A DNA stretch of 64,000 nt from a virus (Duplodnaviria > Caudoviricetes): IMG/VR virus record IMGVR_UViG_3300009155_000035, one strand, 5' to 3'. This document shows positions 2,891 to 35,810 of the stretch, piece after piece (within the stretch, counting starts at the first letter, position 1; every line of letters starts with the position of its first letter). Under the pieces are notes generated by a model. The model was given only the letters and a program-made list of their open reading frames with translations, did not search any database and was not told the origin of the DNA. The position numbers were made by a program, and so were the translations under genes.

Positions 2891-5800
2891 ATGGCACTAG
2901 TATCTCCCGGCGTAGAAGTTACAGTTGTTGATGAGTCAAATTATATACCAGCGGCAACTAACTCTGTTCCATATGTTTTGATTGCGACAGCACAAAACAA
3001 AATCTCTGGCACTGGAACTGGCGTAGCAGCCGGTACTTTGGCAGTCAACGCAGGCAAGGTTTATTTAGTAACCAGCCAGCGTGATTTGGCAGCAACATTT
3101 GGTAACCCGTTCTTTTACAAGACATCGGCTGGTACACCAATTAACGGTTATGAGCTTAACGAATATGGCTTGTTGGCTGCGTTCTCTGTTTTAGGTATTA
3201 GTAATCGCGCTTATATCCAACGTGCAGATATTGACTTATCAGAGTTAACAGCAAGTTTAGTTCGCCCAACAGGCGCACCAACTGATGGTACTTACTGGTT
3301 AGATACATCATCAACATCATGGGGCGTGTTCCAGTGGAATCAAACAACTGGTGCATTCACTAGCAAAACTCCCACAGTTATTACTAGCACAACACAGTTA
3401 ACCGGTGGCGTGCCAAGTGCAAACATTGGTAGTATTGGTGACTATGCAGTTGTTGCAACAAATGCAAACAATCCTGTATACTACAAAAACTCAGAAAACA
3501 TGTGGGTACTTGTTGGTAGCGACGCTTGGAAAATGAGCTGGCCTACAATACAGGCATCAAATTCTCTTGACGGGGTGAGCCTAACAGCAGGTAACACAAT
3601 TGTTATTAACGGAACAACGGTTACAGTGCCAGTAGCACCAAACAACAACCTTAATGGTTTGGTAACTGCAATTAACAATGCAAGTATTGCTGGTGTGACT
3701 GCCGAAGCTGACTCAAGTAGCCGTTTGGTAATTTATGCAGACAGTGACGCAGAAAGTGACGGCTCATCTGCTAATGGTGGCATTGTACACATTGATGTAT
3801 TGAGTACTGCTGGACTATTAACAGCATTGGGTGTTAGTGTAGGAAATTACTATGCACCAACATTGCAACAAAGTCCAAACTACACAGTTCCGCGTTGGAG
3901 AACCAGTGACGTTGAACCTCGCCCAACTGGTTCTGTTTGGAACATGTTGACAGCAGTTAACCAAGGCGCAAGCATTATTATCAAGCGTTATGATTCAGTG
4001 CTTGGAGCATTCGTTACACAAAGCGCACCAATTTATGCAAATGGTTGGAGTGCCGACAAAGGACTAGACCCTGCAGGTGGTGGTAAGAATATTCCAGCTG
4101 ACACATTATATGTTCAGTACAATACTGATCCAGAATTGTCTGGTACTGGATTGTACAACAACACACTGACTCTCAAGGCATATACTCGCCTTGCAGCCGG
4201 TGCAACGGTCATCACCGGCGATGACACTGCTCCAACATTTACCGCATCAAATACATTTACAATTCAGGCCAGCACAGCAAATAGCACAAGTTTAACATCT
4301 CCAGTAACTGCCACTGTTAATGGTGTTACTCCAGCTGACTTTGTAACAGCAGTTAGTGCAGCCGGCGTACCAAATGTTTCCGCCAGCGTTACTAGCGATG
4401 GCTCAATTGCATTTACACATGCTCTTGGTGGCGACATTGTTTTGATTGATTTAACCGGAAATCCAGTAGCAGACGCAGGTTTTAATACTACAGTTACCGG
4501 TGTGTCTGATGCAACAGGCGAATTAACTGGTGGGTTAATTTTATCTAACTGGATCCCATTAACTTACATTGCATCCGCAAGTGCTCCAAGCCTTGATCCT
4601 GCTGATGGACGCCTATGGTACTACAGTGCAACTAATCAAGTCGATATCATGATTCAAAGTGGTACAGAATGGCAAGGTTATCGCAATGTTAGCTTGGACG
4701 TTCGTGGATATAATTTAACACAAACAGATCCAAACGGACCTATTGTTTCTGCATCTGAACCCCTATTGCAAAGCGATGGCACAGATTTGGTTTATGGTGA
4801 TTTGTGGATCGACACCAGCAACTTAGAGTTGTATCCAGTGGTTAAGCGTTGGGAACTGGTCAATGACGTTGCAACCTGGGTGTCTATTGACAATACCGAT
4901 CAAACAACAAGCAATGGTATCTTGTTTGCTGACGCACGTTGGGCAACAAACGGCACAACTGATCCAATTACTGATAACTTCCCAACAATCAAGAGTTTGT
5001 TAACTAGTGATTATTTAGACTTGGATGCACCAGATCCAACACTGTATCCAGCTGGGACATTGTTGTGGAACACACGCCGAAGTGGTTTTAACGTAAAATC
5101 ATTCCAGGTTGATTATTTTAACCCAACAACATTCAGTGTTGACAGCTACAGCGCCGCAACAAGTTATGCAGTTAATGATTTGGTATTGTATGAAGGTATC
5201 ATTTATATTGCTACTGCCCCTGGCAATGGTAACGTACCAACCGACACCAACTTCTGGAGCCCACTGGAAACCAATGCTTGGGTAACTGCTACTGGAAACA
5301 AAGCAGATGGCAGTCCATACATGGGTCGTTTGGCACAGCGTCAATTGGTAGTGGCTGCAATGAAGAGTGTAATTGACACACAAGACACTTTGCGTGAAGA
5401 ACAAAATGTGTTCAACTTGATTGCCTGCCCAAATTATCCAGAGCTGATTCCTAACATGGTTGCATTGAACAACGAACGTAGTAACACAGCGTTCGTTGTT
5501 GGTGATACACCATTGCGCTTACCACCAAATGGGGCAGACATCGTGGCCTGGGCAACCAACAACACTGGCACTGGATATGTCACTGGCGATGGATTAACAA
5601 TTGGTGATCCTTATGTTGGCGTGTTCTACCCAAGTTGCCGTACAACAGATCTAGGCGGAAGCCAAGTTGTACAACCACCAAGTCACATGATGTTGCGTAC
5701 TATTGTACGCAGTGACGAAGTTGCTTATCCATGGTTGGCACCAGCTGGTGTACGTCGTGGTGTAATTGACAATGCTGAACAAATTGGTTATGTTAATGCG

Positions 5801-33934: not shown

Positions 33935-33947
33935 TACCGAAATCTTC

Positions 33948-33977
33948 AAAAAACCCTACAAATCGTAGGGTTTTTTT
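33948..33977. terminator. Bidirectional rho-independent terminator
   Basis: AAAAAACCCTAC-aaatc-GTAGGGTTTTTTT. Confidence 0.8.
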
Positions 33978-34003
33978 GTGGCAAAAAAGCCACATTTTTA
34001 TGG

Positions 34004-34032
34004 TTGACCAGAAAATCCCAATTTGCTAAAAT
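34004..34032 (+). promoter_or_regulatory. Sigma70 early promoter P1
   Basis: TTGACC (34004-09), 17 bp, TAAAAT (34027-32) with TG extension. Confidence 0.75.
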
Positions 34033-34053
34033 TACAACATATTAGGAGTTAGC

Positions 34054-34188
34054 ATGTACAGATTAGATAATTCGTTGCTTTTTCGCAACATCCAAGCACT
34101 TGACAAATACCTGCAACAAAACCCTGGTAAAACTTTTGTAGTAGAGTACGTCACCAGTTACACACTAGGCGACCCCATGGAACAATAA
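34054..34188 (+). CDS. Small early protein, 44 aa (not in ORF track)
   Basis: MYRLDNSLLFRNIQALDKYLQQNPGKTFVVEYVTSYTLGDPMEQ; TAGGAG RBS; fills the space between two promoters. Confidence 0.65.
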   Translation: MYRLDNSLLFRNIQALDKYLQQNPGKTFVVEYVTSYTLGDPMEQ

Positions 34189-34219: not shown

Positions 34220-34248
34220 ACTTGTATAAACTAAAAAAGGAGCTAGCA

Positions 34249-35277
34249 ATGACTCAAGTTGTAATTCACAAAGGCACTTATCGCAATCAAAACGTGCGTG
34301 GTGTTGCATTTACTCTTGTTAAAGACTTTACAAAAGGCGCCCGTGGCGGCTTTGTAACTGTTAAAAGCGAGGGACATTTTGGTCCCGAATTTGACGTGGT
34401 GCGTGTCCGTGTTGACAGCATCGAGGATATTGAAATTGTTGGAGGAAACACTGTGACAGCCCAGACCAAGACTGTAGAGTTCAAGCACCCAGTACACATA
34501 GAGACTGAAGAAGAAGCCATGGATCGTATCCGTACTCGATTTGAAATACTAACAGAGATGACCAAGGCATGTACTGCCGGTGACATCCGTGCTATGATTG
34601 TGAGTGGCCCCCCTGGTGTGGGCAAGAGCTTTGGTGTAGAACAAGAAGTTGACAAGGCTTGCATGTTTGACAAAATTTCTGGCAAGCGTCTCCGCGCCGA
34701 AGTTGTTAAAGGTAGTGCCACCCCAATTGGCCTGTATCAAACTCTGTACAAGTATTCGGACCCTAACTGTGTCGTGGTATTTGACGACTGTGACAGCATC
34801 TTGCTGGATGACGTTGCACTAAACCTGCTCAAGGGTGCCTTGGATTCCGGCAAGAAGCGCAAGATTTCCTGGTTATCAGAGTCTAGTACTCTGCGCCGTG
34901 AAGGCATCCCGGATCAATTTGAGTTTAAAGGCAGTGTTATCTTTATTACAAACTTGAAGTTTGACACAATGAAGTCACAAAAATTGCGTGACCATTTGGA
35001 CGCTTTGCAAAGTCGTTGTCACTATCTGGATCTCACACTGGACACCATGCGTGACAAACTGTTGCGCATCAAACAAATTGCCCGGGATGGTGTGTTGTTC
35101 CAGGATTACGATTTTGAGCAGTATCAGCAAGATGCCATCTTGGAGTTTATGAACACCAACCAAGCTCGCTTGCGTGAGATGAGCCTGCGTATGGCTCTCA
35201 AGATTGCAGACCTAGTCAAGAGCTTCCCTGCAAAGTGGAGATTGATGGCTGAGACAACTTGCATGAAGAGTGCCTAA
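34249..35277 (+). CDS. AAA+/P-loop ATPase with N-terminal extension
   Basis: SGPPGVGKS Walker A, VVVFDDCD Walker B, FITN sensor, ALQSR arginine finger; RBS AAGGAG; start moved to 34249. Confidence 0.8.
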   Translation: MTQVVIHKGTYRNQNVRGVAFTLVKDFTKGARGGFVTVKSEGHFGPEFDVVRVRVDSIEDIEIVGGNTVTAQTKTVEFKHPVHIETEEEAMDRIRTRFEILTEMTKACTAGDIRAMIVSGPPGVGKSFGVEQEVDKACMFDKISGKRLRAEVVKGSATPIGLYQTLYKYSDPNCVVVFDDCDSILLDDVALNLLKGALDSGKKRKISWLSESSTLRREGIPDQFEFKGSVIFITNLKFDTMKSQKLRDHLDALQSRCHYLDLTLDTMRDKLLRIKQIARDGVLFQDYDFEQYQQDAILEFMNTNQARLREMSLRMALKIADLVKSFPAKWRLMAETTCMKSA

Positions 35278-35280
35278 TCT

Positions 35281-35478
35281 ATGCTAAAAGATAGACGAGT
35301 GCTCTTAGAGCAAGAACTTACACAGGCCCACGCAGAGGCCGCCATGTTGTACCTGGACATTGTCACACACGATGGTGACGTGGCCGATGTCAAATATCAG
35401 GCTCTTAAAGAAAAGATTTTGAATTTGCAGTTTGATCTCAATGTAGTAAATCAATTAATACACAAAGGACACAAATGA
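35281..35478 (+). CDS. Small hypothetical protein
   Basis: 65 aa, coiled-coil-like, operonic with the ATPase. Confidence 0.55.
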   Translation: MLKDRRVLLEQELTQAHAEAAMLYLDIVTHDGDVADVKYQALKEKILNLQFDLNVVNQLIHKGHK

Positions 35479-35600
35479 TAAAATATATTGCAAATAGAGA
35501 TAACACAATTCTTTATCCATGGGAGCCGGGTCTTCTAGAATGGTTGCAGGAGAATTATCCTTATTCTGGGTACTGTATCCGGGAGTTGGAACATGTTTGA
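35475..35600 (+). CDS. Small hypothetical protein, 41 aa (not in ORF track)
   Basis: MIKYIANRDNTILYPWEPGLLEWLQENYPYSGYCIRELEHV; ATGA overlap with the upstream ORF. Confidence 0.55.
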   Translation: MIKYIANRDNTILYPWEPGLLEWLQENYPYSGYCIRELEHV

Positions 35601-35700
35601 AATTTGGGATGGTCATGTTTATTTGTTTACAGTGACTACACAACATGAAGCTGACGAACAGGCAGCGGCAGGGTTTTTGGTCAAGCAAGTTGACATCTAG
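35593..35700 (+). CDS. Small hypothetical protein, 35 aa (not in ORF track)
   Basis: MFEIWDGHVYLFTVTTQHEADEQAAAGFLVKQVDI; 8-bp overlap with the upstream ORF, GGAG upstream. Confidence 0.5.
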   Translation: MFEIWDGHVYLFTVTTQHEADEQAAAGFLVKQVDI

Positions 35701-35719
35701 TAAGTAGTGTTATAGTTTC

Positions 35720-35791
35720 CGGATCATCGTTCTAAGTCTAGCTCCTAGATGATCCGTTTTAGAGGTACCTTTAAAAGGTACCTCTTTTTTT
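35720..35791 (+). ncRNA. Candidate small RNA with anti-SD seed
   Basis: Upstream TTGACA (35690-95) and TG-n-TATAGT (35711-16); stem CGGATCATC/GATGATCCG enclosing CTAGCTCCTA; then terminator; no + strand ORF. Confidence 0.55.
35761..35791 (+). terminator. Rho-independent terminator
   Basis: AGAGGTACCTT-taa-AAGGTACCTCT followed by T tract. Confidence 0.85.
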
Positions 35792-35810
35792 CTTGATTAA
35801 ATACAACATC

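What the first reader, a model, noticed from the sequence alone, without database searches (positions are those of the whole stretch)
35690..35791. Candidate phage small RNA whose anti-SD seed matches the RBS of the two upstream early genes
Seen: a promoter-like TTGACA...TG-n-TATAGT (spacer 15 bp, or 17 bp to TAGTTT), a stem CGGATCATC (35720-28)/GATGATCCG (35748-56) enclosing CTAGCTCCTA (35738-47), and a strong + strand terminator. CUAGCUCCU is the exact 9-nt reverse complement of AGGAGCUAG, the ATPase RBS (34238-46). CUAGCUCCUA pairs over 10 nt with one G-U to UAGGAGUUAG, the RBS of the 44-aa gene (34043-52). The match extends beyond the generic SD into the gene-specific CUAG/UUAG spacer. Inference: a trans-acting (or 3'-UTR-derived) sRNA that shuts off translation of this early operon, and perhaps other phage or host mRNAs with AGGAG(C/U)UAG. 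This would be a feedback timer that I do not know to be described for T4-like phages.
Basis: partly seen in the sequence, partly recalled or inferred. Interest (0 to 1): 0.85.

Follow-up and report, generated by a model that had tools for sequence, protein, structure and literature searches.

The report
Phage operon tail masks own start
The RNA at the end of this phage's early ATPase operon carries a hairpin loop that matches the ribosome-binding site at the operon's start, and the two sites change together across about 60 related uncultured freshwater phages, so the operon probably limits its own translation.

Summary
Observation confirmed. All described features are at the stated coordinates. 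These are the promoter-like site, a 9-bp stem (35720-28/35748-56), the loop CTAGCTCCTA (35738-47), a strong terminator (35761-91), and the exact complement of the ATPase RBS AGGAGCTAG (34238-46).

In one genome this match is near chance. The case rests on 80 IMG/VR relatives with 66-93% ATPase identity.
- 59 of 69 loci with a GGAG RBS carry an anti-RBS just upstream of the first real terminator after the ATPase gene. It usually lies in the loop of a 7-14 bp hairpin whose arms differ between lineages.
- The loop co-varies with that locus's own RBS beyond the SD core (CTAG/GATC, CCAAC/GTTGG, CAACA/TGTTG, TTGGC/GCCAA, CTAAC/GTTAG).
- Own pairing averages 9.1 nt against 7.5 when shuffled (0 of 20000 shuffles reach it).

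No promoter is conserved upstream of the element. The window's TTGACA-15-TGtTATAGT is lineage-specific. The element is therefore a 3'-UTR module, not a stand-alone sRNA gene.

Most likely it occludes the ATPase RBS, and that of the 44-aa gene. It could do this by fold-back within the mRNA or as a processed 3' fragment. This resembles icaR-type 3'UTR/SD pairing, which I found no report of in phages.

First-stage notes of this scan (e1-5337283, e1-5340254) saw the same thing on other DNA. No RNA evidence exists.

The parts
34004..34032 (+). Early sigma70-type promoter P1 (TTGACC-17-TAAAAT, TG-extended) of the 44-aa gene
   Evidence: 10 of 12 matches, TG present; sequence
34043..34052 (+). RBS of the 44-aa gene, TAGGAGTTAG. 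Second predicted target: 10 bp with one G-U, duplex -14.4 kcal/mol
34054..34188 (+). 44-aa early ORF
   Evidence: homologue at 81% identity upstream of the ATPase in L001
34191..34219 (+). Early promoter P2 of the ATPase (TTGACC-17-TATAAT, TG-extended), conserved in nearly all relatives
   Evidence: mean score 11.7 of 13 in 33 relatives
34238..34246 (+). ATPase RBS, AGGAGCTAG. Primary target: 9 Watson-Crick pairs with the loop, duplex -16.3 kcal/mol
34249..35277 (+). AAA ATPase of unknown function (phrog_1250; NrdC.10-like of T4-type phages)
35281..35700 (+). Three small overlapping ORFs (65, 41 and 35 aa) between the ATPase and the element. This set varies between relatives
35690..35716 (+). 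Promoter-like site TTGACA-15-TGtTATAGT, partly inside the 35-aa ORF. Not conserved in relatives
35715..35719 (+). U-rich stretch (GUUUC) directly 5' of the stem. A U-run at this place recurs in most relatives and is a possible RNase E or Hfq site (inference)
35720..35756 (+). Hairpin 1: 9-bp stem (35720-28 / 35748-56) with a 19-nt loop
   Evidence: at least 15 different arm pairs in relatives keep the hairpin
35738..35747 (+). Anti-RBS seed CUAGCUCCUA in the 3' part of the loop
35757..35791 (+). UUUU spacer, then the intrinsic terminator (11-bp stem 35761-85, T run to 35791). This is the 3' end of the early operon

Best explanation
The element is the 3'-untranslated end of the early operon: two promoters, then the 44-aa gene, the AAA ATPase and three mini-ORFs. 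It is not a separate gene. Just before the operon's terminator, a hairpin presents a 9-10 nt single-stranded sequence. This sequence is complementary to the Shine-Dalgarno site and the spacer of the ATPase, and, with one G-U pair, to those of the 44-aa gene. Pairing covers the ribosome-binding site about twice as strongly as the ribosome's own 16S tail would bind it, so it should block new initiation and perhaps trigger decay.

My committed reading has two parts.
1. Once the operon RNA is completed, its 3' end folds back on the 5' RBS, so each mRNA is translated mainly while it is being made.
2. The stable two-hairpin 3' fragment left after mRNA decay can do the same in trans on newer transcripts.

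Given that the pairing is real, I put fold-back (cis) at about 55% and a processed fragment acting in trans at about 45% as the main route.

Shown: the anatomy, its position at the operon's end, the co-variation of the two sites, and the lack of a conserved promoter. Inferred: repression, timing, and cis versus trans.
For: 1. Anatomy in the window.

2. Family-wide module:
- 59 of 69 relatives with a GGAG RBS have at least 7 Watson-Crick nt complementary to their own ATPase RBS, followed by a terminator.
- In 52 loci this sits at the first terminator-like site after the ATPase.
- The distance from the ATPase stop ranges from 8 to 2658 nt because the intervening ORFs differ.

3. Co-variation beyond the SD core:
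- At the second base after GGAG there are T-A 18, C-G 11, A-T 4 and no mismatch in 33 distinct RBS/loop combinations.
- 5' extensions also co-vary: TGGAG/CTCCA, CAGGAG/CTCCTG, ACAGGAG/CTCCTGT.

4. A test that does not use the RBS to find the element, taking the nearest CTCC upstream of the first terminator that has one:
- It covers 59 loci, 55 of them at the same site as before.
- Own contiguous pairing is 9.08 against 7.48 +/- 0.24 shuffled, with 0 of 20000 shuffles reaching it.

5. On the ATPase tree, that RBS position changes 10 times and its partner 11 times.

6. Interior non-Watson-Crick pairs are G-U (4 cases) and never A-C. This fits selection on the + strand RNA.

7. Presentation of the seed:
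- It is unpaired (mean P 0.71).
- It lies inside a top-level helix in 28 of 33 types; about 21 of these are a clean 7-14 bp hairpin, with at least 15 different arm sequences.

8. No conserved promoter upstream of the element.

9. Minimum-energy folds of whole transcripts, from inferred start to terminator, contain the RBS/anti-RBS helix in 20 of 27 relatives.

10. Duplex energies: -16.3 and -14.4 kcal/mol, against -7.9 for the 16S tail.

11. None of the 7 relatives with a weak GGAA/GGAC RBS has the element.

12. Precedent:
- Distal anti-SD-like sequences pair with the RBS, block translation and promote decay in B. subtilis (PMC12697547).
- The icaR 3'UTR pairs with its own SD (PMC3868564).
Against: - No RNA evidence. 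The only RNA run holding this phage has two 151-nt contigs inside the ATPase ORF and nothing on the element.
- The window's own full-length transcript does not show the long-range helix in its minimum-energy fold. Folds of RNAs over 1 kb are unreliable either way.
- The phylogenetically strict test is underpowered. It finds 3 independent pairs on well-supported branches, with 2-3 going the same way and 0 the opposite way, p >= 0.25.
- Ten relatives with GGAG lack a clear element. Two of these are truncated and two have only a 6-nt anti-SD.
- Ribosomes loaded co-transcriptionally could keep the RBS occupied.
- The sign of the effect, repression or stabilisation, is not shown.
- Distant cultured relatives (PA5oct, Acj9, S13) show no convincing element.
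Confidence: 0.78

Rival explanations
1. Stand-alone trans-acting sRNA gene. The TTGACA-15-TGtTATAGT site starts a ~70-nt primary transcript that ends at the terminator and represses the two early genes in trans.
For: - The window's site scores 11 of 13. Only about 1% of random coding 70-mers reach this.
- It has a TG-extended -10 box.
- L018 has TGgCATAAT at a similar place.
- A hairpin-loop seed, a U-rich spacer and a terminator are a typical sRNA body.
Against: - No promoter is conserved in 31 of 33 distinct relatives that keep the element. The mean score of 6.9 equals random.
- The spacer is 15 nt.
- The expected start (35722-35724) lies inside the 5' arm of the conserved stem.
- The element is always tied to the 3' end of the ATPase operon, whatever lies in between.
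Confidence: 0.1
2. The same 5'-3' pairing serves mainly to stabilise or store the mRNA, not to shut it off. It would close the two ends and shield the short 5' leader and the GGAG from nucleases, as in the hbs 5'/3'-UTR interaction or as protection from a RegB-like SD-cutting enzyme.
For: - The inferred 5' leaders are very short, 12-28 nt, so the helix sits at the very 5' end.
- In hbs mRNA a 5'/3'-UTR interaction controls ribonuclease action (PMC5737220).
- T4 RegB cuts GGAG in early mRNAs (my knowledge).
Against: - The helix covers the SD and spacer up to the start codon, which must compete with ribosomes.
- No RegB homologue was found in the complete relative G001, though the control for that search was uninformative.
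- The element is absent where the SD is weak. This fits damping of a strong RBS better than protection.
Confidence: 0.1
3. Chance match, or a DNA-level inverted repeat such as a recombination site or the ends of a mobile ATPase cassette, with no RNA function.
For: - In a single genome the match is near chance: p about 0.07 in the window, and the null rate is similar in G001.
- The region is recombinogenic, with PeSL-like cassettes (PMC2839356).
Against: - Co-variation across at least 7 flank types, with 0 of 20000 shuffles reaching the observed pairing.
- One repeat always coincides with the SD and spacer. The other is always in an unpaired loop next to a terminator on the coding strand.
- Wobble G-U pairs are tolerated but A-C pairs are not.
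Confidence: 0.02

Closest known systems
icaR mRNA 3'-UTR / SD interaction of Staphylococcus aureus (Ruiz de los Mozos et al. 2013, PMC3868564)
   Same: A pyrimidine-rich anti-SD motif in the 3'-UTR of an mRNA pairs with the SD region of the same mRNA. In icaR this blocks initiation and creates an RNase III substrate.
   Different: - Here it is a phage early operon of several genes, and the target is the first (and second) cistron 1.1-3.8 kb upstream.
- The motif is displayed in a hairpin loop next to the terminator.
- The pairing extends into the gene-specific spacer and co-varies across about 60 genomes.
- No experiment exists for it.
3'-UTR-derived, processed sRNAs of enterobacteria (CpxQ, SroC and others; my knowledge) with an Hfq module of U-rich stretch, terminator hairpin and poly-U
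   Same: - It shares the terminator of the parent mRNA and has no promoter of its own.
- It has an accessible conserved seed.
- There is a U-run 5' of the hairpin and UUUU before the terminator.
   Different: - The predicted target is the parent operon itself rather than other mRNAs.
- Processing, Hfq binding and even the host are unknown.
Long-range RBS occlusion in RNA phage MS2 (the Min Jou interaction; my knowledge) and distal anti-SD-like sequences in B. subtilis mRNAs (Gill et al. 2025, PMC12697547)
   Same: Sequences hundreds to thousands of nt from an RBS pair with it and shut translation.
   Different: The MS2 partner lies in upstream coding sequence and is opened by translation. Here the partner is a dedicated non-coding 3' module downstream of all the genes.
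PeSL cassettes of T4-type phages (Arbiol et al. 2010, PMC2839356)
   Same: The context is the same. Early sigma70 promoters with a short leader and SD, and terminator stem-loops, flank shuffled small ORFs. In most relatives the terminator's T-run runs straight into the next TTGAC box.
   Different: PeSLs are described as promoter plus terminator cassettes that drive recombination. No loop complementary to an RBS is described for them. In the window no early promoter follows the terminator.
P1/P7 c4 and P22 sar antisense RNAs (my knowledge)
   Same: These are phage RNAs that pair with the RBS region of a phage gene. c4 is co-transcribed with its target.
   Different: c4 lies upstream of its target and controls immunity (ant). 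sar is a true cis-antisense transcript. There is no sequence or structural relation, and Rfam gives no hit on the element.

Membership tests
icaR-type 3'-UTR / 5'-UTR (SD) pairing within one mRNA | The anti-SD motif lies in the 3'-UTR of the same transcript as the target SD | tested here: met
   The element lies between the last ORF's stop (35700) and the operon terminator. No terminator lies between the RBS and the element in the window. No conserved promoter lies upstream of the element in relatives. This is sequence-level evidence only; transcripts have not been mapped.
icaR-type 3'-UTR / 5'-UTR (SD) pairing within one mRNA | Base complementarity to the mRNA's own SD region, supported by compensatory change | tested here: met
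   9-12 contiguous pairs; co-variation; the helix is present in minimum-energy folds of 20 of 27 full transcripts.
icaR-type 3'-UTR / 5'-UTR (SD) pairing within one mRNA | Pairing inhibits the initiation complex and gives an RNase III substrate | not testable with these tools
   This needs toeprinting, reporter assays and RNase III assays.
3'-UTR-derived processed sRNA (type II) | Shares the parent mRNA's terminator and has no promoter of its own | tested here: met
3'-UTR-derived processed sRNA (type II) | A discrete small RNA with a processed (monophosphate) 5' end accumulates | not testable with these tools
   The only RNA run has no contig on the element. A U-run 5' of the stem is compatible with RNase E cleavage but proves nothing.
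3'-UTR-derived processed sRNA (type II) | An accessible conserved seed and an Hfq-type 3' module (U-rich stretch, terminator, poly-U) | tested here: met
   Mean P(unpaired) of the seed is 0.71. The UUUU spacer and a 6-8 T tail appear. Hfq binding itself was not tested.
Independent sRNA gene with its own promoter | A promoter conserved upstream of the RNA in relatives | tested here: not met
   The mean best sigma70 score is 6.9, against 6.8 for random coding sequence and 11.7 for the ATPase promoter. Only the window (11) and L018 (9) stand out.
PeSL cassette (promoter-early stem-loop) | A terminator stem-loop joined to a strong early sigma70 promoter and an SD between small ORFs | tested here: inconclusive
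   In most relatives the T-run is followed at once by a TTGAC box. In the window no early promoter follows, only a TAAATA box at 35798-35803. The PeSL definition does not include an anti-RBS loop.
Any Rfam family | A covariance-model match | tested here: not met
   No match on 35690-35791 even at E up to 10.

The most novel reading that the evidence does not exclude
A self-closing early mRNA serves as a molecular timer in a large lineage of uncultured freshwater jumbo phages. Each ATPase-operon transcript would be translatable only until its own 3' end is made, and the surviving 3' fragments would then silence later transcripts in trans. This would be an RNA-only route to early-gene shut-off, doing for one operon what the RegB nuclease does for T4 early mRNAs. 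Unchecked first-stage notes (e1-5337001, e1-5341437) describe hairpins after an ATPase gene with GCCCUC loops facing GAGGGC ribosome sites in other phages. If those are the same principle, it would be a general and evolvable design in these phages.
Probability: 0.3. Interest if true: 0.85.

Novelty: new variant of a known kind. Interest (0 to 1): 0.72.

Why it matters
Regulation of bacterial mRNAs by their own 3'-UTRs rests on very few examples, with icaR and hbs the main ones. For phages I found no description in five full-text searches.

This case has natural comparative support that the known cases lack. About 60 genomes show repeated compensatory changes linking a ribosome-binding site to a loop 1-4 kb downstream.

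It offers a compact, portable part: a strong promoter and RBS plus a matching 3' module. The signals look E. coli-like, so it can be tested directly in a laboratory strain. It gives a concrete model for how a virulent phage limits an early protein without a protein repressor.

It also shows that a single-genome 'seed matches RBS' observation is near chance. Such observations must be judged by co-variation.

Tried and rejected
- DNA search of the region against 50,697 phage records found no match. Named relatives were reached only through the ATPase protein, best PA5oct at 43%.
- Rfam at E up to 10 gave nothing on the element.
- PA5oct, Acj9 and S13 loci were checked for a 3' anti-RBS. PA5oct has an 8-nt match to its RBS spacer in a hairpin after the ATPase stop, but this is at chance level. 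I did not count it.
- Public runs: one lake metatranscriptome holds two read-length contigs inside the ATPase ORF only, so it says nothing about a small RNA.
- Seed scan of the window with G-U allowed gave many meaningless hits. Only the RBSs of the 44-aa gene, the ATPase and (weakly, three G-U pairs) the 35-aa ORF lie at start codons.
- Partition-function folding of all full transcripts timed out. I replaced it with minimum-energy folds.
- The independent-pairs test on the ATPase tree was too weak: 3 pairs on supported branches.
- RNAalifold on MAFFT alignments recovered only the terminator, because hairpin 1 is misaligned. Hairpin 1 was therefore judged from per-sequence folds, and no covariance model was built.
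- A genome-wide scan of the complete relative G001 for other operons with terminator-proximal anti-RBS found no enrichment over the null. The feature is specific to the ATPase operon there.
- RegB (PF10715) was not found in G001, but the control genomes gave no hit either, so this is not proof of absence.

Full report
**1. The observation**

- TTGACA lies at 35690-95. The last four of these bases, together with the stop at 35698-35700, belong to a 35-aa ORF.
- TG-t-TATAGT lies at 35708-16, after a 15-nt spacer.
- A 9-bp stem, 35720-28 / 35748-56, encloses a 19-nt loop whose 3' part is CTAGCTCCTA (35738-47).
- UUUU follows, then an 11-bp terminator stem (35761-85) and a T-run to 35791.

The RNA folds into exactly these two hairpins: -29.5 kcal/mol, z = -6.8. 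The seed is mostly unpaired, P 0.73, so the alternative TCTAG/CTAGA hairpin does not sequester it.

AGGAGCTAG (34238) and AGGAGTTAG (34044) each occur once in the window. Both lie at the RBSs of two adjacent early genes, each with its own strong sigma70-type promoter. The complement occurs once, in the loop.

**2. Is it more than chance?**

Within one genome, barely. AGGAG and CTCCT are about 2-3 times under-represented, so an exact 9-mer match has p of roughly 0.07 in the window. In a complete 352,754-bp relative (G001), terminator-proximal matches of this length to upstream RBSs occur at about the null rate. The case therefore has to rest on relatives.

**3. Relatives**

The region has no DNA match among 50,697 phage records. 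The ATPase belongs to phrog_1250, is NrdC.10-like, and its best named relative is PA5oct at 43%.

IMG/VR holds 80 loci with the ATPase at 66-93% identity. The DNA occurs in freshwater metagenomes, and related contigs reach 350 kb.

In all of them the ATPase keeps a near-consensus promoter and a strong SD, but the bases flanking GGAG differ between lineages. The ORFs downstream of the ATPase are shuffled.

**4. The key result**

In 59 of 69 loci with a GGAG RBS, a stretch of at least 7 Watson-Crick nt complementary to that locus's own ATPase RBS lies downstream, followed by a terminator.
- In 52 loci it sits at the first terminator-like site after the ATPase.
- It lies 8 to 2658 nt from the stop, depending on how many small ORFs intervene.

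The complementary stretch changes with the RBS:

| RBS | Complementary stretch |
|---|---|
| AGGAGCTAG | CTAGCTCCT |
| GGAGCCAAC(C) | (G)GTTGGCTCC |
| TGGAGCAACA | TGTTGCTCCA |
| GGAGTTGGC | GCCAACTCC |
| CAGGAGCTAAC | GTTAGCTCCTG |
| ACAGGAGCTAA | TTAGCTCCTGT |
| ACACGGA | TCCGTGT |

In 33 distinct RBS/loop combinations, the second base after GGAG pairs as T-A 18, C-G 11 and A-T 4, with no mismatch. Interior non-canonical pairs are G-U (4) and never A-C.

The first search used the RBS to find the element, so I repeated it without the RBS, taking the nearest CTCC upstream of the first terminator that has one.
- It covers 59 loci, 55 at the same site, and 36 combinations.
- Own contiguous pairing is 9.08 nt against 7.48 +/- 0.24 when loops are shuffled among loci. 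None of 20000 shuffles reaches the observed value.

On an ATPase tree, that RBS position changes 10 times and its partner 11 times. The strict independent-pairs test has only 3 pairs on well-supported branches. All informative ones go the same way, but it cannot reach significance, and I report it as underpowered.

**5. Architecture**

In 28 of 33 distinct types the anti-RBS lies inside a top-level helix. In about 21 of these it is the loop of a clean 7-14 bp hairpin, next to the 3' arm.
- The arms differ between lineages: at least 15 arm pairs, including CGGAUCAUC/GAUGAUCCG, CAAAUCGCC/GGCGAUUUG, CCUGGGC/GCCCAGG and CUGUGAUUC/GAAUCACAG.
- Close relatives show single compensatory swaps, for example CCCGGGG/CCCCGGG against CCCGGAG/CUCCGGG.
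- A U-run precedes the stem, and UUU(U)A separates it from the terminator.

Two minority layouts keep the anti-RBS single-stranded just 5' of a small hairpin plus terminator, or directly after the ATPase stop. The constants are therefore the anti-RBS, its accessibility and its place at the operon's end. The exact fold is not constant.

**6. Own promoter?**

No. The best sigma70 score in the 70 nt upstream of the element averages 6.9 in relatives. Random coding 70-mers average 6.8, and the ATPase promoter averages 11.7. Only the window (11, 15-nt spacer) and L018 (9) stand out.

A start from the window's -10 box would fall inside the conserved 5' arm.

**7. How it most likely works**

Duplexes of the loop are -16.3 kcal/mol with the ATPase RBS and -14.4 with the 44-aa gene's RBS. 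The same RBS with a canonical 16S tail gives -7.9. The helix runs from the SD to within 0-5 nt of the start codon.

Minimum-energy folds of whole transcripts (inferred start to terminator, 1.1-2.2 kb) contain the long-range helix in 20 of 27 relatives, and the SD core pairs with the last 110 nt in 23 of 27. The window's own transcript is one of the exceptions.

None of the 7 relatives with a weak GGAA/GGAC SD has the element. This fits a device that damps a strong RBS.

Precedent comes from two systems. In B. subtilis, anti-SD-like octamers hundreds of nt from an RBS pair with it, block initiation and speed decay, and such sequences are depleted from genes (PMC12697547). In S. aureus, the icaR 3'-UTR pairs with its own SD (PMC3868564).

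I therefore commit to RBS occlusion by the operon's own 3' end. Fold-back in cis and action of the stable 3' fragment in trans are both possible and not exclusive. Nothing here separates them.

Small genes just upstream of the ATPase often carry near-copies of the same RBS, about 200-280 nt upstream in the window and in L006, L011, L012, L029, L060, L067 and L078. They would be co-regulated.

The extended RBS motif is otherwise unique in the window and in complete G001. G001 shows no such arrangement at other operons above the null. This is operon-specific control, not a global shut-off.

**8. What is missing**

There is no RNA evidence. The one metatranscriptome holding this phage has two read-length contigs within the ATPase ORF and none on the element. 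The direction of the effect, the timing, any processing, Hfq or RNase involvement, and the host are all inferred or unknown.

**9. Comparison and novelty**

The closest known mechanism is the icaR 3'-UTR/SD interaction. Next come processed 3'-UTR sRNAs and the long-range RBS occlusion of MS2.

The genomic context is that of PeSL cassettes (PMC2839356). Their description contains no RBS-complementary loop. Rfam has no family for the element. Five full-text searches found no phage case.

I class it as a new variant of a known kind. First-stage notes of this scan on other genomes (e1-5337283, e1-5340254) describe the same fold-back idea with GGUUGGCUCC loops. These correspond to the CCAAC lineage that I tested in the IMG/VR loci.

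Noticed in passing
window 35798-35803: A TAAATA box lies 8 nt upstream of the ATG (35811) of the next gene, a 266-aa protein with no Pfam or PHROG hit. No sigma70 promoter follows the terminator. This gene cluster may therefore be driven by a T4-type late promoter, which would make the element an early/late boundary.
   Followed up: no
window, whole: AGGAG (20 on +, 19 on -) and CTCCT are 2-3 times rarer than base composition predicts. Strong SDs are few and seem reserved for early cassette genes. The depletion of anti-SD-like words matches the report of Gill et al. 2025 (PMC12697547).
   Followed up: partly
window 33940-33995: A two-hairpin, bidirectional terminator sits directly upstream of early promoter P1. 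It is a PeSL-like junction of terminator and early promoter.
   Followed up: no
window 35581-35590: The RBS of the 35-aa ORF (GGGAGTTGGA) can also pair with the loop over 10 nt, but with three G-U pairs (-15.0 kcal/mol). It is a possible third, weaker target inside the same operon.
   Followed up: partly
L081 (PA5oct) 4150-4175: Directly after the PA5oct ATPase stop, a hairpin AGTAGCA/TGCTACT has a 3' arm complementary to 8 nt of that gene's RBS spacer (GGAGTAGCAT). The match is chance-level in length, but it lies at the homologous place.
   Followed up: partly
G001 (complete 352,754-bp relative), minus strand, terminator near 115092 and starts at 115655/115658: A 10-nt complement (one G-U) links GGGAGCGGTG at an RBS to the region just upstream of a terminator 566 nt downstream. 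It is the only other candidate of this kind in that genome and is not distinguishable from the null.
   Followed up: no
L064 about 2330-2360; L043, L044, L047 just after the ATPase stop: In these lineages the 3' complement has moved to the bases 5' of the SD (AATCCACA/TGTGGATT, ACACGGA/TCCGTGT). The paired register shifts while the principle is kept.
   Followed up: partly
window 35760 onward, DNA run X4: A 5-kb contig of a relative joins here with the preceding letters CTCCTGGGCAATCCGTTTTA. This is another variant of the anti-RBS plus 3' arm in front of the same terminator.
   Followed up: no
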